Assembly: GCA_964415295.1 (NCBI GenBank)
Contig: CAYPYN010000002.1
Span: 24,485-88,484 of the forward strand
Origin: an uncultured Bacteroidota bacterium
GTDB taxonomy: Bacteria; CLD3; SB21
DNA: 64,000 bases
Direction: 5' to 3'
A model generated the notes under the pieces. It ran no database searches, was not told the DNA's origin, and saw only the letters and a list, made by a program, of their open reading frames with translations. Each line of letters starts with the position of its first letter. The first letter of the stretch is position 1. Of the stretch, positions 8,350 through 57,727 are shown one piece after another. The translations under genes and the position numbers were made by a program.

Positions 8350-8370
8350 TCTTGTTTGAGACCAAACAAA

Positions 8371-8406
8371 AAGCCGTTCCGCAATATGCGGAACGGCTTT
8401 TTTGTT
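8371..8406 (+). terminator. Rho-independent terminator
   Basis: 13-bp perfect stem AAGCCGTTCCGCA / TGCGGAACGGCTT, 3-nt loop, followed by TTTTGTT; an A-tract upstream could also let it act on the opposite strand. Confidence 0.75.
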
Positions 8407-8543: not shown

Positions 8544-9845
8544 CTAGCGCAGAACGGTCTTAATATTGAGAGCGAATGAGAAGCGTCTTAAAGTAATCAG
8601 GCCTTCCAGATTATTTGTCGCGATGTCGATCGTCGTCCTGCCCCAAAGGAATCCGGCGCCGCCGGACACATTAAATCCCCGGTTATCTCCACCTAAGGAC
8701 ATACCCCCGCGAAGTAAGACATAGTCCGACGTCTTGTATTCGGCGCCTACGGCCATTCTCGGCACGGTTGAACCGCTGACGTCATTGAGGTAATGCTCAA
8801 TGTCTCCTGTAAGCAACAGCTTTTTGTTGTACTGATAACCGGCGCCGATACGGAGAATCATTGGAAGCTTTCTTGAATAAGAACCAACATGATACGTGGT
8901 GTCAAATTTGTCGGAGTTATAGTTGGCGTCCAGGCTGTCCTTGTGATCACGGAATTTTACGTCAAATACGTCGCTGGCACGGATCGAATAATACCCCCGC
9001 CGGACCGTGTCTTGTTTGGTCCAGCTGACCTGGCTGACAATATTCATCACGCTGATCCCCACCGTCCAATGCCGGTTAACACGGGCCACCGTACCCAGAT
9101 CGATACCAAAACCATTCCCACCTCTCGACTCTCTCGTCAAGAAACTTCCCCGTGTAATGATAGAATCGCTTTTTTGGATAATACCGCTCATGTCGCTAAC
9201 CGTTACTTGACCAAATCCCATGATGTACTTCAGCGTCATGCCGGCCGACATTTCTTTGACCAGGTTGGGCAGAAAATTCTTGATCGGGTAACCCGCCGAC
9301 ATACTGATATCAAGATAAGCGTCTCCGCCGGCTTTCCCTTTGGCGTTCATCCTCTTAGCCCCTACGTCGTAATTACTCAGGGCCAGATCAAATATATCCT
9401 TGGGGATCTGAGAATACCCGTTTCCATTTAGTCTGACATTCAAGGCATAGTTGCGATACTGAAATCCCAGGATGCGAGCCTCACCGTCTCCGTTGGCCCT
9501 AAGGGATTTGTCGCCTCCAAAAAGATCGAGGAAATTGTTCTTATCTTTTTCACTCAGGGCCTTGCCGTTGTATTTGTTATAATTTGGAATACTGAGTACA
9601 TTATTTCCTATTCTGAAACCGGCCGCAAAGACCTGTAACATCATACGATCGTTATTGCGATTCGTTAATCCCAAATTGGCCGGGTTCCAGAGAAAAGCTT
9701 CCGTGTTTTCGGCGACAGCTGTATTGGCTCGTCCCATGGCCACGGCCCTCGCGTCCGATTCTCCGCCGCCGCCCGCAAAAAGCGTACGGACGGAACCAAG
9801 AATAGCAATAATAAATAATGTTACAATAAATGCAGTTTTAGTCAT
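8544..9845 (-). CDS. Putative outer-membrane beta-barrel protein (FadL/PorV-like N-terminal motif)
   Basis: Signal peptide (MTKTAFIVTLFIIAILGSVRTLFA), then ARAVAMGRANTAVAENTEAFLWNPANLG resembling the N-terminal motif of FadL/PorV-type barrels; alternating beta pattern. Start set to the ATG at 9845; the ORF-track start at 9860 is TTG. Confidence 0.45.
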   Translation of the reverse strand: MTKTAFIVTLFIIAILGSVRTLFAGGGGESDARAVAMGRANTAVAENTEAFLWNPANLGLTNRNNDRMMLQVFAAGFRIGNNVLSIPNYNKYNGKALSEKDKNNFLDLFGGDKSLRANGDGEARILGFQYRNYALNVRLNGNGYSQIPKDIFDLALSNYDVGAKRMNAKGKAGGDAYLDISMSAGYPIKNFLPNLVKEMSAGMTLKYIMGFGQVTVSDMSGIIQKSDSIITRGSFLTRESRGGNGFGIDLGTVARVNRHWTVGISVMNIVSQVSWTKQDTVRRGYYSIRASDVFDVKFRDHKDSLDANYNSDKFDTTYHVGSYSRKLPMILRIGAGYQYNKKLLLTGDIEHYLNDVSGSTVPRMAVGAEYKTSDYVLLRGGMSLGGDNRGFNVSGGAGFLWGRTTIDIATNNLEGLITLRRFSFALNIKTVLR

Positions 9846-11886
9846 TGATATGCTCGTCAATAAAGTATTCGAATTCGACCGAGGCGTTTATGTCGATGAA
9901 ATCATCGGAAGATACCTGCACAAAGCCATCCGTTCCCAAAAGTTTAACTCTGAGCCCTCGGTAAATATTGAATGATGGATCGAAGATACGCCGGTATTCC
10001 GATGAATCCAATTGGTAATTGATATCAACTTCTTCGGCCGCCGTCACGATACCGCCGGTATTGGTCACGCCTTTATTGATCAAGAGCGGCGTGTATGGAT
10101 ATTTGAATTTCACGGCCGATGTCGAATCATAAAAACGAATCTCCGCAGGAGGATCTACGCTGCTGCTGTCCATGAAGAACTGGACGGAGATTGGTACCGG
10201 AAAATGATTCCTGATTTTTCCGGAGATCGAAACGCTGCTGAGGCGGTCACGCAGACGTTGTTTTTGCTTGTCGCTCAAATCCACAAGGGACGGTTCAACC
10301 GTGACCGTATTACGCGTCGAATCGCTGGGAAGGCTGAAGACCAGAGGCGCGCGTAGATTAATCTTGGCATTGATAAAATCTTCGCGGTTAACCGAGCCCG
10401 AAGCCGCGTTATCGCCCACCAACACGATGCCGCTGACTATGATCGAATCAGGCACGAGGCTGAGCAAGTCCGCTACCTCCGAATAATTGGTTGTCAGCGT
10501 CGTATCCTTTCTCGACGGACCTGACGAATACGCCGGTATATTGGCGACAACATGGGTCGTTTTAATAGTATTGGGAAGGCGTTTCCCCGTGATGGTGATA
10601 TCGAGCGATATCGGGAACGGCACACGATGATCCGTGATGATCTCAAAGAACGCGCGTTTGATTGCCACGCTGTCGAGATGTTTGATATCTACCAATTGGC
10701 TGGTCGGTTTGATGTCTACCTGCTCTTGTGCCAACGTCGCATGCAGGCGCGAGAATTTCATCGTATCCAAAGCGGCTTTGACCTTGATGCCCTGACCATT
10801 GGAAATGGTAGCCGGCGTACCTCCGGCAGGAATAGAGTCCGTAGTAAAAGTATACTGGTAATTGATGTATTGATTGCCTATGGAAGCTTCATCCGGGATG
10901 ATCCTCCATTTATCCAACCGGATCACGACCGGCGCCGTAGTGTTCGTTATTCTTATCGACCGGTTGAGCGGGCTTCCGGCAGAATCGAAATCCGATGAAA
11001 AAAAGACGAGATTCGCATTTACGGGCAGAGTTTTTGTGAAATTGAGCGTGATCTTACCCGAACTAATGTATCCGGTGTCAATGACCGAATTGCTGGACGA
11101 TTTGACCGAATCAAAGCGGGAGATCGTCTGGGACGGAAACCGTCCGGTAATGCTCGAAGCTGTAACGTCGGCCACCAGTTTGACTGATAATAAACGCGTG
11201 CTGTCCACTAACACGCTGGTGCCCGATCCCGTGGAATGACCATAGACACGGACGGTTAACGGAGTCGTAACCGTCAAGGATGAAGCGAACGTAGTCAATC
11301 TTGTAAAAGAGCCATTCACAGCTGCATTGGCCACAAAGCTGTCGACCCGCGCACTATTTTGCGCAATAACAACGACCGTCAGAGAATCGAAACCGGCTTG
11401 CGTGTTATTGGTCAAAGTGGTTCTTAAGGTGGATCCGCTCAGGAAAGTGGCTGATGTAAATTTGCCGAAACTTACCGACCGGGTTCTCTGAGTAAAATTA
11501 AAGGCAGGGATGACAGCGTTGGTACCGGCCAGCGCATCAATGGAAGCAGGTCCGATCACTCCGAGCGAATACGTTGTCGTAGCGGAATCCTTCAGCCTCA
11601 GATCGTTAGAAATCAATCCGTCGGCGGAATCTACCGTAGGATCGGCGTCCAGATGATCCCCGACCTGTACACGTTCGTCATGTTTGATGGTTAAGAGTAC
11701 GGAGTCACCGACAATAGCCAGTTCCAGAGAATCCTTTTTGTTCTCCAAATCCTTTTTCAGCCGGTAAATGTCATAAAACTCATTGGTCAGAGGAACGGTA
11801 AGACGGGCGTTGACCGATGGCATCTGGGGCATTTCACAGCTTGCCAGAATCAAGGCCGCCGCGCCAACACATAATGACTTAAACAA
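9838..11886 (-). CDS. Hypothetical large lipoprotein, Ser/Thr-rich beta-rich
   Basis: Probable TTG start at 11886 preceded by GAGGA, giving signal peptide MFKSLCVGAAALILASC with lipobox LASC; stop overlaps the start of the downstream barrel gene by 8 bp. No recognised domain. Confidence 0.45.
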   Translation of the reverse strand: MFKSLCVGAAALILASCEMPQMPSVNARLTVPLTNEFYDIYRLKKDLENKKDSLELAIVGDSVLLTIKHDERVQVGDHLDADPTVDSADGLISNDLRLKDSATTTYSLGVIGPASIDALAGTNAVIPAFNFTQRTRSVSFGKFTSATFLSGSTLRTTLTNNTQAGFDSLTVVVIAQNSARVDSFVANAAVNGSFTRLTTFASSLTVTTPLTVRVYGHSTGSGTSVLVDSTRLLSVKLVADVTASSITGRFPSQTISRFDSVKSSSNSVIDTGYISSGKITLNFTKTLPVNANLVFFSSDFDSAGSPLNRSIRITNTTAPVVIRLDKWRIIPDEASIGNQYINYQYTFTTDSIPAGGTPATISNGQGIKVKAALDTMKFSRLHATLAQEQVDIKPTSQLVDIKHLDSVAIKRAFFEIITDHRVPFPISLDITITGKRLPNTIKTTHVVANIPAYSSGPSRKDTTLTTNYSEVADLLSLVPDSIIVSGIVLVGDNAASGSVNREDFINAKINLRAPLVFSLPSDSTRNTVTVEPSLVDLSDKQKQRLRDRLSSVSISGKIRNHFPVPISVQFFMDSSSVDPPAEIRFYDSTSAVKFKYPYTPLLINKGVTNTGGIVTAAEEVDINYQLDSSEYRRIFDPSFNIYRGLRVKLLGTDGFVQVSSDDFIDINASVEFEYFIDEHIND

Positions 11887-11991
11887 AGAATGTCCTCGAT
11901 GTTTTATATTGTGGAACTTTTTCCAAATGAATGCGGTAATGGTGTTAATGTATCCAAAAGGGTGCGGCAAGGCAAGAATATTATTTAGCCG

Positions 11992-13086
11992 TCAATTTAT
12001 GCGTTCCGCTGACCGCTGTTTCATATCCTCCAGAACGGACAAAAAGGCCTCAACCACGATAGGATTATACTTGGTACCGGCACAGCGAGAGAATTCATCC
12101 ATCACTTCGTCGATGGTCATAACTTTATTATAACCGCGCTGCGTGGTCATGGCGTCGTAGCTGTCGGCCACGGCAACGATACTGGCAAGAAAATCGATCT
12201 CATCGCCCTTAAGACCCTGCGGGTATCCTTTGCCGTCCCAACGCTCGTGATGCTGGTGGACCATGTTGACGATACCGGAAAGGAATTTCATAGGCTTGAG
12301 TATCTTATATCCGATCTCGGGATGTTTTTTCATTTCTTCCCACTCCGATTCGGTCAGACCGGTTACATTTTTAAGGCTGGAAATCTCCACAACCAGCTTC
12401 CCGATGTCGTGAAGCAGGGCCCCTTGTGCAAGGTTTTCCATCTGATCCATATCGAGCTGCAATTTCTCGCCAATTTTGAGGCAATACGACCGCACCCGCG
12501 CTGAATGGCCGGCGGTATAGGAATGTTTTTCTTCCACCGCTCGAACGAAGGATAAGATAATGCCGAGATACGCCTCACGCATCTCTTTGGACTGCTGTTC
12601 GATCTTCTGATTCTTTTCCTCCAGTTCCTCAATGTGTTTCTGGAGTTTGTTGACCAGTTTTGCGCTGTATTCCTTATAAAAAAGCTGTTCGTCCTCTTCT
12701 TCGACCTTTTCGCGCTTTCCGCGCAGATAACCTTCCACCTGTGCCGGAAATTCATCCACGTCGATCGGTTTCTTTATATAGCCGTCGCAGCCGGCCACCA
12801 GGGATCTTTCGCGATCGCCTTCCAATACGTTGGAAGTAAGAGCGATGATAGGTATGTGGCTGAGGCGCTGAATACTTTTGATGCGCGTGGTGGCGGCGTG
12901 GCCGTCCAGAAGTGGAAGATTGATATCCATGAGAATCAGGTCCGGCTCGACTTCCTCCGCCATCTTAACCCCGCTGATACCGTCGTTGGCTTCCACGAGT
13001 TGAAAACCGCGCGCCTCGAGCAGGCGCCTCACGAGCAGGCGGTTCATCTCATTATCTTCAACATATAGAATCGTCGGTTTTTTCAT
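11992..13086 (-). CDS. Response regulator with HD-GYP phosphodiesterase output domain
   Basis: N-terminal receiver domain (ILYVEDNEMNRLL...DLILMDINLP...K) and C-terminal HD-GYP motifs (HDIGK, HHERWDGKGYP); ATG preceded by AGGAGGG. Confidence 0.8.
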   Translation of the reverse strand: MKKPTILYVEDNEMNRLLVRRLLEARGFQLVEANDGISGVKMAEEVEPDLILMDINLPLLDGHAATTRIKSIQRLSHIPIIALTSNVLEGDRERSLVAGCDGYIKKPIDVDEFPAQVEGYLRGKREKVEEEDEQLFYKEYSAKLVNKLQKHIEELEEKNQKIEQQSKEMREAYLGIILSFVRAVEEKHSYTAGHSARVRSYCLKIGEKLQLDMDQMENLAQGALLHDIGKLVVEISSLKNVTGLTESEWEEMKKHPEIGYKILKPMKFLSGIVNMVHQHHERWDGKGYPQGLKGDEIDFLASIVAVADSYDAMTTQRGYNKVMTIDEVMDEFSRCAGTKYNPIVVEAFLSVLEDMKQRSAERIN

Positions 13087-13094
13087 ATTCCCTC

Positions 13095-14795
13095 CTACTC
13101 GCTCTTCGGTTCCGGCGGCCTGTGTTTGATCGGAATGATCATGGTAAACACGGAACCTTTGCCCAGCTTACTATCTACGCGGAGTTCACCGCCGTGCATC
13201 TCCACAAATCGTTTGGCAATGCTCAGACCCAAACCGGTACCGCCGGCTTTGCGGGTCGTGGAACCGTCGACCTGCCGGAATCTTTCAAATATCGCATCGA
13301 TATGATCCTTATCAATGCCGATACCGGTGTCCACCACACTGACCGCCACACGTGTCACGTCGGCGCGAAGCCGGATCGTGATGGATCCTTGCTCCGTGAA
13401 CTTTGCCGCGTTGGACACGAGGTTAAAAATGATCTGCCGAATCTTGGTGACATCGGCTTCAATGACGGGAATCGTGCCGTCGAATCGGCTTTCGATCTTG
13501 ACATTTTTTCCCATCACCAGCGTCTGACTGGCGGTGACGATCTCGTTGACAATAGGAACCAGATCGAAAGTCGTGATATGAAGTTCCATTTTGCCCGCTT
13601 CGATCTTGGATAATTCGAGTATGCTGTTGATGATCTCCAGAAGGTGACGGCCGCTGTTGTAAATGGCCGAGAGATCGACGCGTTGGGTATCCGTGATCTC
13701 TCCATCGATCCCGCTCATGAGCACTTTTGAGAAGCCGATGATCGAGTTGAGCGGCGTCCTCAGTTCGTGACTCACATTGGCTATGAATTCTGACTTGAGA
13801 CGGTCCGCCTCCTGTGCTTTTTTGACCGCCTCACGCAGAGCCACGTTACTTTTGCGAAGCTCTTCCGTACGTTCGGCGATCTTTTCTTCAAGTTCCTTGT
13901 TGCTGCGCTCAAGTTCCGACGTCAGGGCCTGCAGCTGCAGATAGGCCGCACCGAGCTGTTCCGTCAGGATCTTGTGCTGATCCATGACCTCTTTTTCCTT
14001 TTGCGGATCGAGCGTTACATTCTTCTTGGTGATATTGACCAGTTCCCCCAGCAGCTGCTGTTCGAACAATGTCTCATCCATCACCGCAATATGTTCCTGC
14101 TTGTGGATCACCTGCGTCTGATGAAGCCGGTCCTTCAGTTCTTTGACATCCCGCTCGAAGGCTCTCAGCCGTTCCGTTCTGTTCCTGACAAGCCCAAGCA
14201 CATAAAACACGGTCTCACGGATCTTAGTGACCGGTTCTTTGGTGGCCATTTGAAATACCTGGCAATCGTAGCAGGAAGGAATTCCGAGATGAGTTCGGCA
14301 GCCGCAGTTTTCACCCGCAACAAACCAGCACCGCGGATTAACCGCTTGGTAAGCGATACAGGCATGATCCGGACATTCGCGAACATTGAAACATTGATTG
14401 GCCACTTCCTGATTACGGCCGACGATGAGTTTCTGATTTTCGATCTGATGCGCGAGATCGGTCAATTCGTCTGAAACGTTGCGCATAAAATTGACCGAAT
14501 ACGCCTGGATAACCTCAGGAACAAGTTTCGGATTGGTTCCGGCCTCCTCCAACAGACGTTCGCGCTCCTGTTCGAAGGATTTTTTTTGCTTTCTGAAGGT
14601 AGTCTCTTTATTGACGTCTTCGATCAGCGACATGGTGTCGAGAAAGAGTCCGTCCATAGAAAAGTCTTCGATACTGGGTTTTTGCTTTTTGGTGACTTTT
14701 TTGGTGGTCAGTTCATACTCAACGATCTCCACTTCCTGCGAGAAGGAACCGTTGGTTTGATCCGTTGTGTTAGATGTTTTTTCCGTGTCAGCCAT
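13095..14795 (-). CDS. Sensor histidine kinase with Cys-rich N-terminal module, no predicted TM segments
   Basis: HisKA (SHELRTPLNSI) and HATPase_c (GGTGLGLSI) motifs; coiled-coil linker; N-terminal region has eight Cys in about 50 aa (CFNVRECPDHACIAYQAVNPRCWFVAGENCGCRTHLGIPSCYDCQ). Start set to the ATG at 14795; the ORF-track start at 14810 is TTG. Confidence 0.75.
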   Translation of the reverse strand: MADTEKTSNTTDQTNGSFSQEVEIVEYELTTKKVTKKQKPSIEDFSMDGLFLDTMSLIEDVNKETTFRKQKKSFEQERERLLEEAGTNPKLVPEVIQAYSVNFMRNVSDELTDLAHQIENQKLIVGRNQEVANQCFNVRECPDHACIAYQAVNPRCWFVAGENCGCRTHLGIPSCYDCQVFQMATKEPVTKIRETVFYVLGLVRNRTERLRAFERDVKELKDRLHQTQVIHKQEHIAVMDETLFEQQLLGELVNITKKNVTLDPQKEKEVMDQHKILTEQLGAAYLQLQALTSELERSNKELEEKIAERTEELRKSNVALREAVKKAQEADRLKSEFIANVSHELRTPLNSIIGFSKVLMSGIDGEITDTQRVDLSAIYNSGRHLLEIINSILELSKIEAGKMELHITTFDLVPIVNEIVTASQTLVMGKNVKIESRFDGTIPVIEADVTKIRQIIFNLVSNAAKFTEQGSITIRLRADVTRVAVSVVDTGIGIDKDHIDAIFERFRQVDGSTTRKAGGTGLGLSIAKRFVEMHGGELRVDSKLGKGSVFTMIIPIKHRPPEPKSE

Positions 14796-14806
14796 AAACT
14801 GTCCCG

Positions 14807-15739
14807 TCAATCCTTTGCGTGGCCGTGGATGACATTCAGAACCGATGGAATCATTTTGAGTTTGATCTCATGCGCATCAAGGGACACCACTTCTCCGTCC
14901 GCATGAATCGGCAGGGCTTCATCGGACCGGATGTGTACCTCCACCGAGCGGCGAAGTTCGACTCCCGGAATGTTCAAATGCGTACCCTTCATGACCTTGA
15001 GCAGACTTGCCAGCATTCTTCTCTTCCCCATGGCGTCGATGGAGCACACGTCAAAAAGACCATCGTCCACCCTGGCATCGGGCGTAATGTAAAACCCTCC
15101 GCCGGAACAGCGGCCGTTGCCGATCGTGAGCATAAGGATCTGCCGGCTGAATTTCTCTCCATTGACAGTCACATGCATGAAGGGCGGTTTGTATTTAAAA
15201 ATGGATTTGATGACGGCCGTCAGATAGATCGCCACGCCGCGCAGATGTTTGATCTTAATGCTTTCATAGTTCACATACGCATCAAAACCGATCCCGATAT
15301 TATTATTGAAGAATCTGGTATGGTTGCCGTCGACGCTGATCTGGCCGACATCTACCGGCATGGTTTTCATTTGCTGAAGTATGTGTAGGGCTTTATGGAG
15401 GTGAACAGGCACGTTGAGCATTTTGACAAAATCGTTTCCCGATCCAATCGGCAATACGCCCAGTGCGGCCATACGCTCGTTGCTGCCGTTCTTCATCCGC
15501 GCCTGCATCATGCCGTTGATCACTTCATGTACCGTGCCGTCCCCGCCTGCCGCGACAATCACGTCATGATCAAAGGTTCGCTCAACCACGTATGGCAAAG
15601 CCTCGCTGGATTGCGTGGTGACCAGCACGTCGTATTCAATCTTTTGCCGGTCCAGCCAGTGGCGGATCTCGGGTTCGCATTTGGCGCCTTCACCGCGATT
15701 GGAAGCAGGATTGATCACGACAAACCATTTTCGGCTCAT
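14807..15739 (-). CDS. Diacylglycerol/lipid kinase family protein (YegS-like)
   Basis: DAGK catalytic-domain motifs (VIVAAGGDGTVHEV, LPIGSGNDF); first gene of an apparent kinase / HK / RR operon. Confidence 0.65.
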   Translation of the reverse strand: MSRKWFVVINPASNRGEGAKCEPEIRHWLDRQKIEYDVLVTTQSSEALPYVVERTFDHDVIVAAGGDGTVHEVINGMMQARMKNGSNERMAALGVLPIGSGNDFVKMLNVPVHLHKALHILQQMKTMPVDVGQISVDGNHTRFFNNNIGIGFDAYVNYESIKIKHLRGVAIYLTAVIKSIFKYKPPFMHVTVNGEKFSRQILMLTIGNGRCSGGGFYITPDARVDDGLFDVCSIDAMGKRRMLASLLKVMKGTHLNIPGVELRRSVEVHIRSDEALPIHADGEVVSLDAHEIKLKMIPSVLNVIHGHAKD

Positions 15740-15765: not shown

Positions 15766-16152
15766 TTATTCGACTAAAGCAATGCAGTCGATCTCAACCA
15801 GGACATCTTTGGGGAGACGGGCGACTTCTACCGTAGAACGGGCCGGTGCACTTTCCGAGAGGAATTCCGCATACACTTCATTCATGGCCGTAAAGTCGCC
15901 GATATTCTTCAGGTAAACCGTCGTCTTAATGACATTTCTTAGACTCGTACCGCCGGCCTGTAAAATGGCCTGCATATTCTGTAAAACCAAGCGTGTCTGT
16001 CCTTTGATATCCAATGGCGCGATCTGATTTGTATTCGGATCGATGGCGATCTGACCGGAAGTAAATATCATTTTTCCGGAAGCCACGATACCTTGATTGT
16101 ACGGCCCAATAGGAGCGGGCGCCTTCTCCGTTTTAACAATTTGTCTGATCAT
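15766..16152 (-). CDS. ridA: RidA/YjgF family reactive-intermediate deaminase
   Basis: 128-aa product with YjgF/RidA pattern (APAPIGPYNQG..., ...ARSTVEVARLP). Confidence 0.75.
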   Translation of the reverse strand: MIRQIVKTEKAPAPIGPYNQGIVASGKMIFTSGQIAIDPNTNQIAPLDIKGQTRLVLQNMQAILQAGGTSLRNVIKTTVYLKNIGDFTAMNEVYAEFLSESAPARSTVEVARLPKDVLVEIDCIALVE

Positions 16153-16244: not shown

Positions 16245-16454
16245 CTACTTAATATCCTTGAAATTTGCGTCCTGAACATCTTCACTCTTGTAAGAAGCAT
16301 TCCTTACTTCCTTGGACGGATCGGGGCTTTGTCCTGACCTTCCGCCCGTTTGCCGGTAACGGTTAGCCTCGGTCAGGTGAGAAATATAGCGAATCGCCTT
16401 CCACACGGCAAAAAATAAGATACCCAAAAGCACAAAACGGATAATAGAAAACAT
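16245..16454 (-). CDS. Hypothetical small membrane protein
   Basis: 69-aa ORF with one hydrophobic helix (IIRFVLLGILFFAVW) and a charged tail; no recognised family. Confidence 0.3.
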   Translation of the reverse strand: MFSIIRFVLLGILFFAVWKAIRYISHLTEANRYRQTGGRSGQSPDPSKEVRNASYKSEDVQDANFKDIK

Positions 16455-22898: not shown

Positions 22899-24548
22899 AT
22901 GAGCAAAGCCGGTAAACAAATTCTATTCAAAAAGCATCCTCACTCGGCCATTCTCGAACGCTTGAGCCGCATCGACATTCTTCGGGCACTCCCGGCGGAA
23001 GAGATGCTCACGCTCGTACCGCATGTGGAACAAATCCAATTCCCCGCCGGACAAGTGCTAATGCGGCAAGGCGATACAGGCGATGCTGTTTATTTTATTG
23101 AAAACGGTTTGGCTCGGGTCAACCGCAGCGAAGCGCCCGATTTCTGGCATGTCGGCGCCGGAAGTGTGGTCGGTGAAATCGCCTTGCTCACCGGAGACAA
23201 GCGGACAGCGACCGTCACGGCCGAAACGGATATGGTTGTCTGGAAGGTTGCAAAAGAGGCTTTTGATACGGTCGTAGCGCAGTCGGCTCAATTGAAAATG
23301 GCGCTGGAAGAACTCATGGTTCACCGACTCAAAGGCATTGCGGTTACTTTGCCAAAAAAAAAGGTCTGGCTATCCACAGCCATGCGCGCACTGGAAGCGC
23401 AATACCGCGGTATTACGGCTTGGCAGGGATTCATGGCTGTCGGTATAATCATGTGGTTCGCCGTCGCGGTCAATAAATTCGTGACCCTGGTCGATATAAG
23501 TCAATCCGAAATAGGTTATGCGACGTACCAGTTGATCGCCGGGATGCTGATCCTCCAGGGTTCCTGCGAAGGATTTATCATCGGCGTTGAAAGGATCGGC
23601 GCCCGATACAGATGGGACGGTTTCATTTCAGGAACTGTCGGTTCGATACTTAGTACGCTTCCGGAATTCGTCGTCATTGCCTTTCTTGTCATGGTCGATC
23701 CGATGGCAGCCTACGTTACGGCCATCGTGACCATCTTCAATAATTCACTCGCCTACTCGATCTATTCATTTTTCCTTCCAAAAGATAAGGAAGGCTGTTA
23801 TACGATGCCCCGCTCCATGACCCGGGCGGGCGGTGAGATCCTGATCGCCGGAAGCGCGATCACGCTGATCATCGGATTGGTCATGATGGTCATGCGCGTG
23901 GAATCGACCAGGACCCGGTTCGAGGGATTCGATCTTATTTTGATCGGCGTCATTCTGATGATCATTTACGGATACTATACGCTGATGCTGGTCCGCTATT
24001 ACGGCGAAGGCAAGGACGACGCGGAATCGGTTCCTCCGGACCCGGAAAACCTGGGACATGACACGAGCTGGAAAGGCATCGGGATCATGTTCACGCTTGG
24101 CATCGTCGGCGCGTATTGCGGCGGCGAGAGTATCGGCGGTTTCGCGGAAACAGCTCTCAACGGCCTCGGTCTGCCGACCATTCCCACGGCGGCTATGCTG
24201 GCCTTTTTTGCGGGTATCAGCGAATACATCATCGTTTATAAATCGCACAAACGCGGAGAGCTTGGAATAGCGCTCAGCAATGTTTTCGGAGGATTGACCC
24301 AGGTCATGTTCCTCTTACTCCCTTTTGCTATGATTGTGATCGGCCTGGCCGGTTTGATCACCGGCGATACGACGTATTCCGTTCCGATCAATATTTCAAC
24401 TTGTCTTCTGATGTTGCTGCTCTTTCCGCTGTTTCACACGCTGCACCAATATCTGGAACAGGAAAAATCGGTGAATAATCTCGACGCCGCGGCCATGACG
24501 GGAATTTATGTTCTGTTGCTTTATTTTCTGTTTACTTACACCCAGTAA
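22899..24548 (+). CDS. Cyclic-nucleotide-binding domain fused to CaCA-like (Na+/Ca2+ exchanger-type) membrane transporter
   Basis: N-terminal cNMP-binding domain with phosphate-binding cassette (GEIALLTGDKRTATVTA); about 10 TM segments with CaCA alpha-repeat-like motifs (GSILSTLPEF; GISEY...GIALSNVFGG). Confidence 0.55.
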   Translation: MSKAGKQILFKKHPHSAILERLSRIDILRALPAEEMLTLVPHVEQIQFPAGQVLMRQGDTGDAVYFIENGLARVNRSEAPDFWHVGAGSVVGEIALLTGDKRTATVTAETDMVVWKVAKEAFDTVVAQSAQLKMALEELMVHRLKGIAVTLPKKKVWLSTAMRALEAQYRGITAWQGFMAVGIIMWFAVAVNKFVTLVDISQSEIGYATYQLIAGMLILQGSCEGFIIGVERIGARYRWDGFISGTVGSILSTLPEFVVIAFLVMVDPMAAYVTAIVTIFNNSLAYSIYSFFLPKDKEGCYTMPRSMTRAGGEILIAGSAITLIIGLVMMVMRVESTRTRFEGFDLILIGVILMIIYGYYTLMLVRYYGEGKDDAESVPPDPENLGHDTSWKGIGIMFTLGIVGAYCGGESIGGFAETALNGLGLPTIPTAAMLAFFAGISEYIIVYKSHKRGELGIALSNVFGGLTQVMFLLLPFAMIVIGLAGLITGDTTYSVPINISTCLLMLLLFPLFHTLHQYLEQEKSVNNLDAAAMTGIYVLLLYFLFTYTQ

Positions 24549-31318: not shown

Positions 31319-32413
31319 TTATTTATTTTCATTCAGTTTCTTCAAAATATCTTCGATACGCTTCTTATTGGCATCATCTTTGACCATCTTCAGCGCTTTG
31401 TTATAATTGTCTATGCCGCCTTTTTTATCCCCGCTCTGAGCCAACGCTTCCCCCAAACTATCATACACGTTCCATGACTCCGGATGTTTTTTGACATTCA
31501 GTTTGAAAACATCGATCGCTTCTTTGATCTTGTTTTGTGCGATCAGATTGTAACCGTAGGTATTCAGGTCGGCTTCGTTAGCATTGTCGATCGCGGTCTT
31601 TCGCAGGGCTTCCGCTTCCTGAGCCTTACCTTGTTTTTCAAGAATAGCCGCTTTGGTAAATTGCGCTTGTGCGCCACCGTTGTAGGTCACAGCGCGTTCC
31701 GCCCAATAGGCGGCCTGGTCCAGTGCGATGTTGTTTTGCAGGCAGTAATTGGCTCCTCGCAGAAGAGCCTGACCGTTGAATGCATTCCGGTTACGCAATT
31801 GTTTCTTCAGATTCTCTACAACGATCGCCGGCGTGTCGAAGGAAATAGTAAAGGGTACTTTCATTTTTTCCCAACGAAGATAAGCCGAGGTCTGTTTCAT
31901 ATTTGAGTTGTCGAATCCGTAGCTCAGGCGCTCCTGCAATTCACTTACCGTCACCGGTTTAACATTCACCCGCAAAACATCTTCCGATTCTTCGTAGAAG
32001 AAATGGCCCCAGGAAGTGGAGTTCTTGCTGAAAATGATCGTCCACTGATCGGGCTGAACCAGCATAAAAAGCCCGTACGTCCCGGCGGCAATCGGTTTAC
32101 CTTCCACCTGCGCATCGTGCGAAAAAGTAATGGTCGTATTCTCATTGGCTCCGGCGCGCCACGGTGTGGGTTTCCCGTTGCCAAAAGGGCCGGCCGGTTC
32201 CCAGCCGAACGGAACCAGTTTTCCCCAGACCTCGCGGCCGTTGATACCCGGACTGTGGTAACTGATGGTAACTTTGGAAATTCCGACTTCCTGCATGATC
32301 ATCGCGGCCGGACTCGCGTCAGGCATGATGAGAAGTTCCTGAGCATAAGCGGCTGAAAAATTCAGTAGGACCGCCAATAAGGCGGTAAAAGCTGATCGTT
32401 GTATGTTCTTCAT
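31319..32413 (-). CDS. DUF2911 domain protein with C-terminal TPR-like extension (paralog 1)
   Basis: ATG at 32413 preceded by GAAGGAG; signal peptide; core shared with the two neighbours (GREVWGKLVPF, WRAGANENTTITF, AAGTYGL); C-terminal helical TPR-like repeats. Confidence 0.55.
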   Translation of the reverse strand: MKNIQRSAFTALLAVLLNFSAAYAQELLIMPDASPAAMIMQEVGISKVTISYHSPGINGREVWGKLVPFGWEPAGPFGNGKPTPWRAGANENTTITFSHDAQVEGKPIAAGTYGLFMLVQPDQWTIIFSKNSTSWGHFFYEESEDVLRVNVKPVTVSELQERLSYGFDNSNMKQTSAYLRWEKMKVPFTISFDTPAIVVENLKKQLRNRNAFNGQALLRGANYCLQNNIALDQAAYWAERAVTYNGGAQAQFTKAAILEKQGKAQEAEALRKTAIDNANEADLNTYGYNLIAQNKIKEAIDVFKLNVKKHPESWNVYDSLGEALAQSGDKKGGIDNYNKALKMVKDDANKKRIEDILKKLNENK

Positions 32414-32478
32414 AGATCCTCCTTCAGGATAAATAATGGAATACGTTAATTCAATGGATGAGATGTTCCCCATAGAGA

Positions 32479-33021
32479 CTACTTTGCATTTTCGACCTGG
32501 AATCCTACTTTTAGTTTTTCCCAAGTCAACGCAACAGAGGCTTTATTGTCACCGGATTTTGATACGGCAAAGGATAGGCTTTCCTGGAATTCGTTCGGCT
32601 GCGGTTTGACCGTGATCCGAAGCGCGTCATTTTCCTGTTTATAGCTGAAACTGCCCCAGGCCTTAGAATCGTTGCTGAATATGATGATCCATTCGTTCTT
32701 AGACGGAATTGAATGCAGACCGTATGTGCCGGCCGCCAGTTTTTTTCCGTCGATCAAAACATCTTTGGAGAAGCTGACGGTGGTATTCTCGTTGGCCCCC
32801 GTGCGCCAGACCTTATTGTAAGGCACCAGTCCGCCCCAAATCTCACGGCCTTTGACCGATGGACTGGAATAGCTGACGGTGATCGTATTGCCGTCCAGCG
32901 ACAGCGAAGCCGTTGCCGGCGGACTGGGACGAGCGGATTTGTCCTGTCCGCGAACCTCAGGTGACAGAGAGACCAGGCAACAAACAAACATAAGCCAGGT
33001 TTTCAGTTCGGTGATTTTCAT
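32479..33021 (-). CDS. DUF2911 domain protein (paralog 2, core only)
   Basis: ATG at 33021 preceded by GGAGGA; signal peptide; same core motifs (GREIWGGLVPYNKVWRTGANENTTVSF, AAGTYGL). Confidence 0.55.
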   Translation of the reverse strand: MKITELKTWLMFVCCLVSLSPEVRGQDKSARPSPPATASLSLDGNTITVSYSSPSVKGREIWGGLVPYNKVWRTGANENTTVSFSKDVLIDGKKLAAGTYGLHSIPSKNEWIIIFSNDSKAWGSFSYKQENDALRITVKPQPNEFQESLSFAVSKSGDNKASVALTWEKLKVGFQVENAK

Positions 33022-33178: not shown

Positions 33179-34009
33179 TTACTTCTTTTTCTTCCACTCC
33201 GCGAGCGTTTCTTCGGTTTGTTTCAGGTTAAACGGCGGTTCCGGCTGAGCTTTACCGTATTGGACCGCTTTTTCCATCAGCTTGATCGCGTCCGGCATCT
33301 TGTTGAATTTGGCCAATAGAAGCGCCTTGACCCGCGTATTGCCATAGTTTTCCTTGATCGCTATGGAAATGTCGATCCATTTCATCGCTTCGTCCAGATT
33401 AATGTCATTTTCGAGGCAATAATTCGCAGCCTGCATGGCGGCTTGCGGGCCGATCGCAGAACGGGCTTTGGCCAGAACAAGCGCCTGTGTTTCTACCTCA
33501 ACTTTGAACGCAATTTTCAATTTTTCCCACTGAAGAACAACCATTGTCGAATTATCGGTTACGTCCGCAAACGAGAATTCCATACGTTCGGTCATTTCTG
33601 ACGACTGCGGTTTCACCTTGAACCGAAGCGCGTCGTTCTCGGGTTTATAATTGAAAGCGCCCCAGAGTTTAGCATCTTTACTCAGGATCACGGTCCATTC
33701 GTCTGTTCCGGGAATTGTCTGAAATCCATAGACGCCGGGTGCCAGTTTAGTCCCTTCCACTTTCACCGTGTCTCCGAAGGTAATGGTCGTATTTTCATTG
33801 GCGCCCGTCCGCCAGACTTCGTTGAACGGCACCAGTTTGCCCCAGATCTCACGGCCTTTGACACCGGGCCGGGAATAGGCGATCGATATGTCTGTGATAC
33901 CCACCGTCTGGACAACTGTGGCCTTGGGGCTTGAACGCGGAATGGCTACCTGCGCCTCTAAAGATGAAACATAAAAAACAGCCAAAAGTAACATGAACAG
34001 GTTTTTCAT
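33179..34009 (-). CDS. DUF2911 domain protein with C-terminal helical extension (paralog 3)
   Basis: ATG at 34009; signal peptide (MKNLFMLLLAVFYVSSLEA); same core motifs (GREIWGKLVPFNEVWRTGANENTTITF). Confidence 0.55.
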   Translation of the reverse strand: MKNLFMLLLAVFYVSSLEAQVAIPRSSPKATVVQTVGITDISIAYSRPGVKGREIWGKLVPFNEVWRTGANENTTITFGDTVKVEGTKLAPGVYGFQTIPGTDEWTVILSKDAKLWGAFNYKPENDALRFKVKPQSSEMTERMEFSFADVTDNSTMVVLQWEKLKIAFKVEVETQALVLAKARSAIGPQAAMQAANYCLENDINLDEAMKWIDISIAIKENYGNTRVKALLLAKFNKMPDAIKLMEKAVQYGKAQPEPPFNLKQTEETLAEWKKKK

Positions 34010-34151
34010 GATACGTCTCCTTATGGTTATGTGAATGGCAATTGTGATCCGGGAATGGCTTATTGTAAGAAAACTTTTTCGAAAAGACAACTTTTTTGCT
34101 GTCTTTACTGAATAAATTGTAGTAAAATTTATTTGAATTAACTTCCACACA

Positions 34152-46984: not shown

Positions 46985-48370
46985 TCACTTATGCACCTTC
47001 CTCACGAAATCCTCTACTTCAGGAACACCGCCCTGGAGAACGAGATAACCGTTGTAAGGCTCGCGTTCGGTGATGTCGTAACCGATCGGCGTAAGCATCA
47101 TCTTTTTTACTTCGACGGGATCTTCGGTCTGGCCGAGCACCCAGCCGAGCTTGATATAAGCCGTCTCGGGAAGCATATTGCCCAGCGGCACGACGCCTTT
47201 GGCCATCATGTCGCGCCCGGTGTCATAAACGAACATGTGCACGTAGCCCCAGATCGTCTGCACAACCATGAAGACCGACACGTCCTTGGCTTTGGCCTCT
47301 TCGATGGCAGGATAGAGTTCTTTATTTACATGTCCCAGCCCTGTGCCGACGATGACGATGCCTTTGTAGCCTTTTTCGATCATGGAGAACATCACGTCGG
47401 GTTTCATGCCCGGGTAATAATACAGCATCGTCGCTTTTTCGCTGAAGAACGGATAGATGTCCACATTCTTATCCTTTCGGCGGTGATTGTATTCCTTTTT
47501 GATCGGCGTGATCTTTTTTCTCGTGACCATCGCCACGGGCGTGTCACCGATCGTACGGAAAGTTGATCGATACGACGAATGCATCTTGCGCACGCGCGTG
47601 CCGCGGTGCAGTAAGCCGTATTCATCCGACGTCGGGCCGAACATACACACCATGACTTCCGCGATGTCGGCATTGCCGGCGGTATACATCGCGTGCATGA
47701 GATTCAGCGCCGCATCGGAACTCGGCCGGTCGGACGACCTTTGAGACCCAACCATGATGATGGGCACAGGCGAATTCTGCACCATGTACGTCAGGACGGC
47801 AGCGGTATGCTGGAGCGTGTCCGTGCCGTGGCCGATCACGATGCCGTCGATGCCGTGGCGTATCTCTTTGACAATGGCATGCGCCAGCGCGATGTATTGC
47901 TTCGGGCCCATATTCTCGCTGAATACGGCGAAGATCTTCTCCGTCTCCAGATTGCAGATCTCGGCGAGTTCGGGCACCGCGCCGTAGAGTTCCCCCGGCG
48001 AAAAGGCCGGGATCACGGCGCCCGTTCGGTAGTCGAGCCTCGATGCGATCGTGCCGCCCGTGCCGAATAGTTTCACGTACGGCAGGCCTTTGGTGGTCGG
48101 AAACTGTTTCTCCGGTATCTGGTAATTGGCTTTTTTGTAGCCGGTTTCGCGGATGGCGGTAATGGTCTTCACGTCCACGCCGATATTGTACCCCGACGCG
48201 ATCTTCAGAACGATGTGTTCGTCGTCGGTATTCTCCGCACGCGGGAGTATCGTTCCCTGAAAAAGTCCGCGCGTGGATTCGATATCCACCGACGCCCATA
48301 CGCGGGCCGTGTATTTTTTGAGGACCTCTAAGGCGCGTCCTTTGTAGCCCTGGAATATGTTGTCGCTCAT
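46985..48370 (-). CDS. gatD: Glutamyl-tRNA(Gln) amidotransferase subunit D-like (archaeal-type GatD)
   Basis: 461 aa; GatD-specific N-terminal domain (GYKGRALEVLKKY..., DEHIVLKIASGYNIGV) followed by asparaginase-type domain with GTGGTIAS. Confidence 0.75.
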   Translation of the reverse strand: MSDNIFQGYKGRALEVLKKYTARVWASVDIESTRGLFQGTILPRAENTDDEHIVLKIASGYNIGVDVKTITAIRETGYKKANYQIPEKQFPTTKGLPYVKLFGTGGTIASRLDYRTGAVIPAFSPGELYGAVPELAEICNLETEKIFAVFSENMGPKQYIALAHAIVKEIRHGIDGIVIGHGTDTLQHTAAVLTYMVQNSPVPIIMVGSQRSSDRPSSDAALNLMHAMYTAGNADIAEVMVCMFGPTSDEYGLLHRGTRVRKMHSSYRSTFRTIGDTPVAMVTRKKITPIKKEYNHRRKDKNVDIYPFFSEKATMLYYYPGMKPDVMFSMIEKGYKGIVIVGTGLGHVNKELYPAIEEAKAKDVSVFMVVQTIWGYVHMFVYDTGRDMMAKGVVPLGNMLPETAYIKLGWVLGQTEDPVEVKKMMLTPIGYDITEREPYNGYLVLQGGVPEVEDFVRKVHK

Positions 48371-57724: not shown

Positions 57725-57727
57725 AGT

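What the first reader, a model, noticed from the sequence alone, without database searches (positions are those of the whole stretch)
13095..15739. Soluble histidine kinase with 8-Cys N-terminal module, in an operon with a lipid kinase and an RR-HD-GYP
The kinase has no hydrophobic segments; its sensory region contains eight Cys in about 50 residues (C-x5-C-x4-C-x10-C-x8-C-x-C-x8-C-x2-C), compatible with a metal, Fe-S or redox-sensing cluster. It is flanked upstream by a DAG/lipid kinase and downstream (9-bp gap) by a response regulator whose output is an HD-GYP c-di-GMP phosphodiesterase domain. This suggests a cytoplasmic redox or metal signal feeding c-di-GMP turnover.
Basis: partly seen in the sequence, partly recalled or inferred. 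Interest (0 to 1): 0.5.

Follow-up and report, generated by a model that had tools for sequence, protein, structure and literature searches.

The report
Soluble kinase with divergent two-CW cysteine domain
A membrane-free bacterial sensor kinase carries a divergent eight-cysteine copy of the "two-CW" domain, a widespread signalling module with no known function, structure or literature, and it sits beside a regulator that probably degrades a cyclic-dinucleotide messenger; the wiring is ordinary but the sensor is an untested metal or redox-sensing candidate.

Summary
On the minus strand lie a YegS-type lipid kinase (14807-15739), a soluble HisKA kinase (13095-14795) and a REC-HD-GYP regulator (11992-13086). 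The kinase's only eight Cys lie within 44 residues.

The Cys module is not an orphan. Exhaustive search found 89 relatives. Seven of the eight Cys, one Trp and one Glu are invariant or nearly so, and 84 of 91 aligned segments match NCBIfam NF045718 ("two-CW domain"). The window protein scores 11.5 bits against a cut-off of 35, so it is a divergent eight-Cys variant, conserved in nine "Bacteroidota" MAG orthologues.

The domain has no Pfam model, no solved structural relative and no literature found. It occurs in the cytoplasmic part of kinases, GGDEF proteins and chemoreceptors. It also occurs as the only non-DNA-binding domain of MerR- and XRE-type regulators, and as a stand-alone gene overlapping another REC-HD-GYP gene. 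This argues for an input role.

Kinase-regulator pairing is conserved. The lipid kinase link is lineage-limited.

The cofactor (Fe-S or Zn), the signal and the substrate (c-di-GMP or cGAMP) remain inferred.

The parts
14807..15739 (-). YegS/BmrU-type lipid (DAG-like) kinase, 310 aa, immediately upstream of the kinase
   Evidence: It matches DAGK_cat at 1.4e-27 and YegS_C at 3.3e-32. It scores 157.9 bits on TIGR00147 against a cut-off of 118.65. It is syntenic in L001 and L005-L009 but absent in L002-L004.
13095..14795 (-). Soluble HisKA-type histidine kinase, 566 aa from the ATG start (alternative TTG at 14810 gives 571 aa)
   Evidence: It matches HisKA and HATPase_c. It has no hydrophobic segment. 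The start was chosen by agreement with orthologue N-termini.
14709..14732 (-). Conserved N-terminal motif VEIVEYEL (residues 27-34, TTG numbering), in an otherwise fast-evolving and probably disordered N-terminus
   Evidence: The motif is present in all nine orthologues. It has no family match. The surrounding region is predicted disordered, but only in a low-confidence model.
14142..14468 (-). Two-CW-like domain with its flanking helices (kinase residues 115-223)
   Evidence: An HMM of 87 homologous segments scores it at 73.2 bits, E 7.7e-25; hhalign gives 99.8% probability. phmmer against 1.84 billion proteins gave 89 hits. The AF2 model has pLDDT 84.3.
14262..14393 (-). Eight-Cys core (C140, C146, C151, C161-W162, C169, C171, C180, C183)
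   Evidence: Positions are. C140, C146, C151, C161, W162, C180 and C183 are invariant, and C169 is conserved in 95% of 91 segments. All eight are invariant in the orthologues.
14214..14216 (-). Invariant Glu199 at the start of the helix that leaves the Cys domain
   Evidence: It is invariant in all 91 aligned segments and in 89 full-length proteins.
13806..14261 (-). Long helical linker (about residues 184-335) joining the Cys domain to the DHp domain; its distal part (TEQLGAAYLQLQ...) is conserved
   Evidence: The secondary structure comes from the low-confidence full-length model. Per-region identity is 72-75% for the distal helix against 37-42% for the proximal part.
13593..13796 (-). HisKA (DHp) domain with phospho-acceptor His348 in SHELRTPL (13749-13772)
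   Evidence: Pfam places HisKA at residues 339-406.
13125..13454 (-). HATPase_c catalytic domain with N, G1 and G2 boxes
   Evidence: Pfam places it at residues 453-562. The motifs NLVSNAAKFT, DTGIGI and GGTGLGLSI are located.
11992..13086 (-). Response regulator with HD-GYP output, 364 aa: REC domain 12736-13071 with D54, HD-GYP domain 12061-12546, HHERWDGKGYP at 12220-12252
   Evidence: It matches Response_reg at 8.4e-23 and HD_5 at 7.7e-33. It aligns to 5z7c and 4mcw. The start lies 8 nt after the kinase stop and has a Shine-Dalgarno sequence.
9838..11970 (-). 710-aa predicted lipoprotein with no family match, 21 nt downstream of the regulator; possibly co-transcribed
   Evidence: The ORF is and has no Pfam match. 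It is syntenic in L001, L005, L006, L009 and L004.
8544..9860 (-). DUF5723/TraF-like outer-membrane barrel protein, last gene before a strong terminator-like hairpin at 8368-8402
   Evidence: The Pfam match is.
15766..16152 (-). RidA/L-PSP family gene, 26 nt upstream of the lipid kinase; possible upstream member of the same transcription unit
   Evidence: It matches Pfam Ribonuc_L-PSP at 5.8e-41. No terminator-like site lies between it and the lipid kinase.

Best explanation
This is a cytoplasmic two-component system.

The kinase and its input. The kinase is soluble. Its only conserved candidate input module is a compact domain with little regular secondary structure, built around eight Cys. 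This domain is a divergent variant of the two-CW domain. It is inserted between long helices that run into the DHp helix carrying His348.

Proposed signalling steps (inferred):
- The Cys bind one or two metal centres. I favour an Fe-S cluster slightly over Zn.
- Oxidation, loss or ligation of that centre by O2, NO, ROS or metal availability changes the packing of the domain against the exit helix, which begins at the invariant Glu199.
- This shifts the register of the coiled coil and so the balance of autokinase and phosphatase activity.

Output. Phosphotransfer goes to Asp54 of the adjacent REC-HD-GYP regulator. That regulator's metal-dependent phosphodiesterase then adjusts the level of a cyclic dinucleotide. 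This is most likely c-di-GMP and possibly 3'3'-cGAMP.

Shown here: the gene order, the domain identities, the catalytic motifs, homology of the Cys module to the two-CW family, its strong conservation, and the family's distribution in signalling proteins.

Inferred: cofactor binding, the nature of the signal, the direction of regulation and the substrate.
For: Wiring:
- The kinase has HisKA and HATPase_c with intact H, N, G1 and G2 boxes. The regulator has REC with D54 and an HD-GYP domain with HD and HHERWDGKGYP.
- The two genes are 8 nt apart with a Shine-Dalgarno sequence.
- The kinase-regulator pair is kept in L001, L005-L009 and in the distant L002/L003, where the kinase is 45% and the regulator 57% identical.

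Homology of the Cys module:
- Exhaustive phmmer gave 89 hits at E<=1e-3, for example P0004 at 2.6e-17.
- 84 of 91 aligned segments match NF045718.
- A profile of 87 homologous segments scores the window protein at 73 bits, and hhalign gives 99.8%.

Constraint on the module:
- Six Cys, W162 and E199 are invariant across 91 segments, and C169 is conserved in 95%.
- All eight Cys are invariant in nine orthologues.
- The core is 70-77% identical where the N-terminus is 28-29%, which is as conserved as the catalytic domain.

Input role:
- The domain lies after the last membrane segment in all 43 membrane-anchored relatives.
- It co-occurs with HisKA (49 proteins), GGDEF (17), REC (17), HAMP (13) and MCPsignal (4).
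- It is the only non-HTH domain in XRE-type (L010, L011) and MerR-type (L012) regulators. In L012 it occupies the C-terminal position, which in MerR-family regulators (established knowledge, e.g. SoxR, CueR, ZntR) holds the effector-binding site.
- It is also fused to REC (P0114). Two stand-alone two-CW genes lie just upstream of another REC-HD-GYP gene in L016, and the second overlaps it.

Fold that depends on metal:
- The AF2 model (pLDDT 84) has only short helices across the Cys core.

Anaerobic setting:
- The window encodes Rnf and a PFOR-like/ferredoxin fusion.
- Named relatives come from Nitrospirota, Desulfobacula and Odinarchaeota.
Against: - No cofactor was or could be tested here, and no model coordinates were available to check Cys geometry.
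- The Cys spacing matches no canonical Fe-S or zinc motif.
- In many relatives the domain sits alongside other sensor domains (PAS, Cache, GAF) or in tandem. It could therefore be a structural or transmission element rather than a sensor.
- The window protein fails NF045718's curated cut-off, at 11.5 against 35 bits.
- The conserved N-terminal motif could be a docking site for a separate sensor protein.
- The best solved relative of the HD-GYP domain is cGAMP-specific.
- No GGDEF gene lies in the window.
- One relative (L004) has lost the regulator.
Confidence: 0.55

Rival explanations
1. The eight-Cys module is a structural zinc-stabilised connector or dimerisation element that senses nothing. 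The real signal reaches the kinase through a partner protein docking on the conserved N-terminal motif or on the helices, as H-NOX and NosP proteins do for their kinases.
For: - The domain is often embedded between HAMP or PAS domains and the output, or occurs in tandem, in proteins that already have sensor domains.
- The N-terminal motif VEIVEYEL is conserved in all orthologues.
- There is only one C-x2-C pair, and no Fe-S motif is recognisable by eye.
Against: - In MerR- and XRE-type one-component regulators and in the two-CW-REC fusion, it is the only candidate input domain.
- About half of the relatives, including this kinase, have no other recognised sensor domain and no membrane segment.
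- No candidate partner sensor gene lies in the operon.
Confidence: 0.25
2. The Cys act as a metal-free thiol/disulfide switch that reports the cytoplasmic thiol redox state.
For: The module has a high density of invariant Cys with variable loop lengths. The position of C169 shifts in some relatives.
Against: - An odd number (seven) of conserved Cys across the family, together with the lack of regular secondary structure in the model, fits metal-templated folding better.
- A reducing cytoplasm in anaerobes would rarely form four disulfides.
Confidence: 0.08
3. The lipid kinase is a functional partner, so that a lipid or membrane-derived signal is coupled to cyclic-dinucleotide turnover, as the operon layout suggested to the first reader.
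For: The lipid kinase lies 11 nt upstream of the kinase on the same strand, with no terminator-like site between them. The arrangement is kept in six genomes, with lipid kinase identity down to 46-48%.
Against: - In those genomes the whole thrS-infC-rplT-pheS-ridA block is syntenic, so the linkage is not specific.
- More distant orthologues have DUF6913 (L002, L003) or nothing (L004) in that position.
- Among other two-CW loci examined, none showed a lipid kinase neighbour.
Confidence: 0.1
4. The output domain acts on 3'3'-cGAMP, or on both dinucleotides, rather than on c-di-GMP.
For: The best solved relative is V-cGAP3 (5z7c, 'cGAMP-specific phosphodiesterase 3') at E 1.2e-35, ahead of the 'Metal dependent phosphohydrolase' entry 4mcw at 7.5e-29. 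No GGDEF gene lies in the window.
Against: - Most characterised REC-HD-GYP proteins, such as RpfG, hydrolyse c-di-GMP (general knowledge).
- The closest NCBIfam model is a c-di-GMP phosphodiesterase response regulator, NF053512, though the score of 168 bits is well below the cut-off of 400.
- Sequence alone does not predict specificity.
Confidence: 0.2

Closest known systems
Two-CW domain (NCBIfam NF045718; 'two-CW domain-containing protein')
   Same: - The order and spacing of seven Cys are the same: C-x5-C-x4-C-x9-CW-x7-C...C-x2-C.
- The second CW and the Glu on the exit helix are invariant.
- Homology is significant: phmmer to 2.6e-17, a profile score of 73 bits and hhalign at 99.8%.
- The setting is the same: cytoplasmic, within signalling proteins.
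   Different: - The window protein scores 11.5 bits against a cut-off of 35.
- The first CW is CF here, and CY or CW in orthologues.
- The C5-C6 loop is four residues shorter and lacks the GGxVQGxFAxK signature.
- There is an extra eighth Cys (CGC).
- The exit-helix motif is RIRETxFY instead of GExFNNMM.
- The NCBIfam model is centred on stand-alone proteins of about 100 aa, which score 94-111 bits.
RpfC/RpfG-type signalling (histidine kinase controlling a REC-HD-GYP phosphodiesterase)
   Same: A kinase is paired with a response regulator whose output is an HD-GYP domain with intact HD and GYP motifs.
   Different: From general knowledge, RpfC is a membrane-bound hybrid kinase that senses the fatty-acid signal DSF. 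Here the kinase is soluble, is not a hybrid, and carries a Cys-rich input domain.
Cytoplasmic Fe-S sensor kinases (NreB, AirS, CSK/Hik2)
   Same: In concept they are alike: a soluble kinase with a Cys-ligated cluster as an O2 or redox sensor. PMC6949291 (abstract listed) describes an iron-sulfur cluster underlying the redox sensory function of the chloroplast sensor kinase CSK.
   Different: No sequence or fold relation was found. From general knowledge, those clusters sit in PAS or GAF domains with four or fewer Cys. This module matches no Pfam family and no solved structure.
MerR-family sensors with C-terminal Cys sites (SoxR [2Fe-2S]; CueR, ZntR and MerR metal sites)
   Same: A relative of the domain occupies the C-terminal effector position of a MerR-type regulator in L012.
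   Different: The relation is by architecture only. The Cys pattern and length differ from the sites of SoxR and CueR, and the window protein is a kinase rather than a transcription factor.
NO-responsive kinase/HD-GYP regulator circuits (NCBIfam NF053512 'NosR family' response regulator)
   Same: The REC-HD-GYP architecture is the same, and NF053512 is the best NCBIfam match at 168 bits.
   Different: The score is far below the family cut-off of 400 bits. No H-NOX or NosP gene is adjacent.

Membership tests
Two-CW domain (NCBIfam NF045718) | Score at or above the curated cut-off (35 bits) on the NCBIfam model | tested here: not met
   The window segment scores 11.5 bits, E 0.29. Orthologue segments score 11.5-13.5 bits. 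For comparison, stand-alone proteins score 94-111 bits, an XRE fusion 48.8 and the kinase-type relative P0012 31.9.
Two-CW domain (NCBIfam NF045718) | Seven conserved Cys in the family's order and spacing | tested here: met
   C140, C146, C151, C161, C169, C180 and C183 align with the invariant or nearly invariant Cys columns of 91 segments.
Two-CW domain (NCBIfam NF045718) | Two Cys-Trp dipeptides | tested here: not met
   The second CW (C161-W162) is present. The first is C140-F141 in the window. It is CW in L004, L007 and L008, and CY or CF in the others. In the family, W follows C1 in 63% of segments.
Two-CW domain (NCBIfam NF045718) | Statistically significant homology to recognised members | tested here: met
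   phmmer against 1.84 billion proteins gave 89 hits at E<=1e-3. 84 of 91 aligned segments hit NF045718 at E<=0.01. A profile of the 87 others scores the window protein at 73.2 bits, and hhalign gives 99.8%. Caveat: those 87 were selected by similarity to this query.
Two-CW domain (NCBIfam NF045718) | Biochemical property (cofactor or ligand) | not testable with these tools
   None is described. No paper was found and no solved structure.
HisKA-type sensor histidine kinase | DHp domain with a phospho-acceptor His, plus an ATP-binding domain with N, G1 and G2 boxes | tested here: met
   HisKA scores 69.8 bits and HATPase_c 107.5 bits, both above cut-off. The motifs SHELRTPL, NLVSNAAKFT, DTGIGI and GGTGLGLSI are present.
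REC-HD-GYP response regulator (RpfG type) | Receiver domain with a phospho-acceptor Asp, plus HD and GYP motifs | tested here: met
   Response_reg scores 81.1 bits and HD_5 114.1 bits. D54, LHDIGK and HHERWDGKGYP are present.
REC-HD-GYP response regulator (RpfG type) | c-di-GMP hydrolysis stimulated by phosphorylation | not testable with these tools
   The top solved relative is annotated as cGAMP-specific, so the substrate is open.
YegS/Rv2252/BmrU lipid kinase (TIGR00147) | Score above the curated cut-off | tested here: met
   It scores 157.9 bits against 118.65. It is below the cut-offs of the YegS and DagK equivalog models, so the specific substrate is unknown.
Known zinc ribbons, zinc fingers or ferredoxin-type Fe-S domains | Match to a curated profile or a solved fold | tested here: not met

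The most novel reading that the evidence does not exclude
The two-CW fold is a previously uncharacterised class of Cys-ligated metal-cluster sensor domain, most attractively an O2-, NO- or redox-labile Fe-S centre. Anaerobic bacteria and archaea would use it as a portable cytoplasmic input for kinases, diguanylate cyclases, chemoreceptors and MerR- or XRE-type transcription factors. The eight-Cys form in this lineage would be a distinct variant with an extra ligand, dedicated to controlling an HD-GYP phosphodiesterase.
Probability: 0.35. Interest if true: 0.75.

Novelty: new variant of a known kind. Interest (0 to 1): 0.5.

Why it matters
Input domains are the least understood part of bacterial signal transduction. 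This family has seven invariant or nearly invariant Cys, no Pfam model, no solved structural relative and no literature that I could find. Yet it feeds kinases, cyclic-di-GMP enzymes, chemoreceptors and one-component transcription factors in anaerobes.

The window protein is a favourable test case:
- It is soluble.
- It has no other recognised sensor domain.
- All of its Cys lie within the module.
- It has a defined partner regulator with an enzymatic read-out.

If the module binds a redox-active cluster, it would define a new sensor class. It would also give a direct link between cytoplasmic redox or metal status and cyclic-dinucleotide levels in a poorly studied Bacteroidota-related lineage.

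The finding also shows that curated models under-annotate the embedded forms of the domain: typical kinase-embedded copies score near or below the cut-off, and this clade scores far below it.

Tried and rejected
- Word-indexed search with the 281-residue N-terminal half found nothing. The exhaustive search was needed.
- Exact look-ups of the window kinase with either start found no record.
- The word-indexed profile search returned mostly short stand-alone proteins and few names. It was useful only for showing the NCBI name 'two-CW domain-containing protein' and the stand-alone forms.
- Weak Pfam hits to RICTOR_V and coiled-coil families were dismissed. They are below cut-off and fall on helical segments.
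- I tested whether PF24820 (Diguanylate cyclase-like sensor domain) covers the Cys module. It does not appear in the GGDEF-type relatives examined.
- The afdb50 fold library was unavailable.
The full-length model from five sequences is poor (pLDDT 53) and was used only for rough secondary structure.
- A c-type haem site was rejected by direct reading of the sequence, because no His follows the C-x2-C pair (CYDCQ).
- Six literature searches for the domain, by name, by accession, by sequence strings and by general descriptions, found nothing relevant.
- No GGDEF, EAL or PilZ gene was found in the window by motif scan.
Full report
**1. What is in the sequence**

Three genes lie head to tail on the minus strand.
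- A 310-aa YegS/BmrU-type lipid kinase at 14807-15739. It matches DAGK_cat and YegS_C, and TIGR00147 at 157.9 bits against a cut-off of 118.65.
- A histidine kinase at 13095-14810 as listed, with HisKA at residues 339-406 and HATPase_c at 453-562.
- A 364-aa response regulator at 11992-13086, with a receiver domain and an HD-GYP domain (Response_reg, HD_5, HD).

Orthologue N-termini begin MADxEK... This points to the ATG at 14795 as the true kinase start, giving 566 aa and an 11-nt gap after the lipid kinase stop. The kinase stop and the regulator ATG are 8 nt apart, with a GGAGGG ribosome-binding site.

The kinase has no hydrophobic segment; the highest 19-residue hydropathy mean is 1.16. Its only eight Cys lie at residues 140, 146, 151, 161, 169, 171, 180 and 183, spaced 5, 4, 9, 7, 1, 8 and 2. 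Given a Cys frequency of 0.89% in 27 window proteins, such a cluster has a chance probability of about 5e-9 per 44-residue window.

The small errors are the spacing (x9 and x7, not x10 and x8) and the gap (8 nt, not 9).

**2. What the Cys module is**

Pfam gives no match for the region even at E<=10. NCBIfam gives one weak hit, NF045718 'two-CW domain', at 11.5 bits and E 0.29, against a cut-off of 35. A word-indexed search with the N-terminal half found nothing.

An exhaustive phmmer search with residues 100-235 against 1.84 billion representatives found 89 proteins at E<=1e-3.
- One is 94% identical.
- Two are about 45% identical.
- The rest form a long tail at 22-37% identity in proteins of 139-1208 aa.

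Almost all of them carry the same Cys pattern, some twice. In an alignment of 91 domain segments, C140, C146, C151, C161, W162, C180, C183 and E199 are invariant, and C169 is present in 95%. C171 is found only in the window's own clade and in a few others.

84 of the 91 segments match NF045718 at E<=0.01. None matches a Pfam family that covers the Cys region. A profile built from the 87 segments outside the window's clade scores the window kinase at 73.2 bits over residues 115-223. Profile-profile comparison gives 99.8% probability. One caveat applies: those segments were selected by similarity to this query. Their independent match to NF045718 removes most of that circularity.

The NCBIfam model is centred on stand-alone proteins of about 100 aa, which score 94-111 bits. 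Copies embedded in kinases score around the cut-off (P0012, 31.9 bits). The window's clade scores 11.5-13.5 bits.

The module is therefore a divergent relative of the two-CW domain, and it is not a member by the curated threshold. It differs in these ways:
- The first CW is CF here (CY or CW in orthologues).
- The loop between the fifth and sixth Cys is four residues shorter and lacks the GGxVQGxFAxK signature.
- There is an extra Cys (CGC).
- The exit-helix motif is RIRETxFY rather than GExFNNMM.

**3. Conservation**

Orthologues were recovered from metagenomic contigs and MAGs labelled 'uncultured Bacteroidota bacterium'. All eight Cys are invariant in nine orthologues, including ones only 36-45% identical overall.

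In the orthologues that are about 61% identical overall, identity by region is as follows:

| Region | Identity |
|---|---|
| Cys core | 70-77% |
| N-terminal 105 residues | 28-29% |
| Proximal linker helix | 37-42% |
| ATP-binding domain | 65-71% |

The module is under constraint comparable to that on the catalytic core.

**4. What the family does elsewhere**

Among the 89 relatives, Pfam finds:
- HisKA in 49
- GGDEF in 17
- receiver domains in 17
- PAS domains in about 20
- HAMP in 13
- Hpt in 7
- MCP signalling domains in 4
- GAF in 4

In all 43 proteins with predicted membrane segments, the domain lies C-terminal to the last one, so it is cytoplasmic.

Other architectures are more telling.
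- In two Desulfobacula MAGs, the domain (48.8 bits on NF045718) is fused to an XRE-type helix-turn-helix in a protein of about 133 aa.
- In a Nitrospirae MAG, a more divergent copy that did not reach NF045718 but scores 24.3 bits on the local family profile follows a MerR-type DNA-binding domain and dimerisation helix. From established knowledge of the MerR family, that position holds the effector site, for example in SoxR, CueR and ZntR.
- P0114 is a two-CW-receiver fusion.
- In L016, two tandem stand-alone two-CW genes precede another REC-HD-GYP gene, and the second overlaps it. In L017 and L018 a stand-alone copy precedes a receiver protein.

In a one-component regulator, the non-DNA-binding domain is the input. 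This is the best available evidence that two-CW is a sensory module and not just a spacer. The recurrence next to REC-HD-GYP in an unrelated lineage is suggestive, but it rests on two independent cases.

**5. Structure**

With the 91-sequence alignment, AlphaFold2 gives a confident model (pLDDT 84.3, pTM 0.75).
- An N-terminal helix comes first.
- The Cys core follows, with only four short helices.
- A long exit helix begins just before E199.

The full-length model is poor (pLDDT 53). It indicates a disordered N-terminus, helices before the domain, and two long helices (about residues 193-262 and 269-365) that run into the DHp.

**6. The rest of the system**

The kinase has intact H, N, G1 and G2 boxes. 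The regulator has D54, T84 and K105, and the motifs LHDIGK and HHERWDGKGYP. It aligns along the whole HD-GYP domain with V-cGAP3 (5z7c, E 1.2e-35) and with the 'Metal dependent phosphohydrolase' entry 4mcw (E 7.5e-29). The best solved relative is annotated as cGAMP-specific, and there is no GGDEF gene in the window. The substrate should therefore be regarded as a cyclic dinucleotide, probably c-di-GMP.

The kinase-regulator pair is conserved in L001, L005-L009 and in the distant L002/L003. One low-coverage relative (L004) has a frameshifted kinase and no regulator.

The lipid kinase accompanies the pair only in genomes where the whole block thrS-infC-rplT-pheS-ridA-...-lipoprotein is syntenic. 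It is replaced by a DUF6913 gene in L002/L003 and is absent in L004. I therefore do not treat it as a functional partner.

There are no terminator-like sites between pheS and a strong hairpin at 8368-8402. The transcription unit may thus extend from ridA, or from pheS, through a 710-aa lipoprotein and a DUF5723 barrel protein. That scan does not cover Bacteroidota-type promoters.

**7. Mechanism proposed**

Shown:
- A soluble kinase carries a highly constrained two-CW-like domain placed in line with the signalling helices.
- A translationally coupled REC-HD-GYP partner follows it.

Inferred:
- The Cys ligate one or two metal centres. With eight Cys, two tetrahedral sites are possible. The family-wide seven Cys plus the invariant Glu could do the same.
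- A change in that centre repositions the exit helix and switches the kinase.
- The phosphorylated regulator changes its phosphodiesterase activity.

I lean slightly to an Fe-S centre (about 0.45) over Zn (about 0.3), for three reasons.
- The C-x5-C-x4-C triad resembles cluster-binding loops of Rrf2-type regulators. This comparison is from memory and was not tested.
- The named relatives come from Nitrospirota, Desulfobacula and Odinarchaeota, lineages I take to be largely anaerobic from general knowledge.
- The window encodes Rnf and a PFOR/ferredoxin fusion.

None of this is decisive.

**8. Novelty and verdict**

The two-component wiring to an HD-GYP regulator is a known type (RpfC/RpfG-like). 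The lipid kinase is ordinary.

The Cys module belongs to a family that NCBI curators have named, but I found no paper on it, no Pfam model and no structure. The window's clade is a distinct eight-Cys variant that current models miss. I rate it a new variant of a known kind.

Interest is moderate at 0.5. It is a clean and tractable entry point to an uncharacterised, widespread sensor domain, but nothing here overturns current understanding.

Noticed in passing
window 46985-48370 (-) and 48931-50952 (-): A GatD-like gene (Asparaginase domains plus GatD_N) and a GatE-like gene (GatB_N, 673 aa) lie close together. This looks like an archaeal-type GatDE Glu-tRNA(Gln) amidotransferase pair in a Bacteroidota-like bacterial genome.
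   Followed up: no
window 55380-62059 (-): RnfD and RnfC genes are preceded by a 1443-aa fusion with PFOR-like domains and several 4Fe-4S ferredoxin motifs. This indicates ferredoxin-based anaerobic energy metabolism.
   Followed up: no
window 14709-14732 (-); kinase residues 27-34 and about 45-70: A conserved N-terminal motif [VI]E[IV][IV]EY[ED]L, followed by DFSMDGLFLDTMSLIEDVNKE, is present in all nine orthologues within an otherwise fast-evolving N-terminus. It has no family match and could be a docking site.
   Followed up: partly
L010 9818-10225, L011 9800-10231, L012 4538-5068: Small one-component regulators in which an XRE-type (Desulfobacula MAGs) or MerR-type (Nitrospirae MAG) DNA-binding domain is fused to a two-CW-like domain.
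   Followed up: partly
L016 5612-7463: Two tandem stand-alone two-CW genes (116 and 110 aa) precede a REC-HD-GYP gene, and the second overlaps its start. They lie downstream of a large PAS/GAF kinase. This is a second, independent association of two-CW with HD-GYP.
   Followed up: partly
P0007, P0017, P0020 (C-termini): Several two-CW proteins end in another Cys motif, ICxxCKKIRDDxGxW...FSHGxCPxC. It had no Pfam match in the proteins scanned.
   Followed up: no
L007 orthologue domain segment: There is a weak hit to TIGR03277 'methanogenesis marker 9 domain' (E 0.006, 16.8 bits against a cut-off of 96.2) over the Cys region. It could be a remote relationship or chance.
   Followed up: no
L004 3410-4994: In one relative (assembly coverage 1.75x) the orthologous kinase is split by frameshifts. 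It directly follows ridA and has neither a lipid kinase nor a regulator; the lipoprotein and DUF5723 genes come next. This could be a decaying system or assembly errors.
   Followed up: partly
window 22899-24548 (+): A protein that combines a cyclic-nucleotide-binding domain with a Na/Ca-exchanger membrane domain.
   Followed up: no
window 31319-32524 (-) and 33179-34150 (-): Two paralogous DUF2911 genes lie near each other, one of them with C-terminal TPR repeats.
   Followed up: no
window 16245-16454 (-): A 69-aa ORF with an N-terminal hydrophobic segment lies between pheS and ridA. ORFs of 65-70 aa occupy the same position in L001 and L004.
   Followed up: no
window 8544-11970 (-): A 710-aa lipoprotein with no family match and a DUF5723/TraF-like barrel gene overlap by 23 nt. 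They follow the regulator without a terminator and are syntenic in several relatives, including the one that lacks the regulator.
   Followed up: partly
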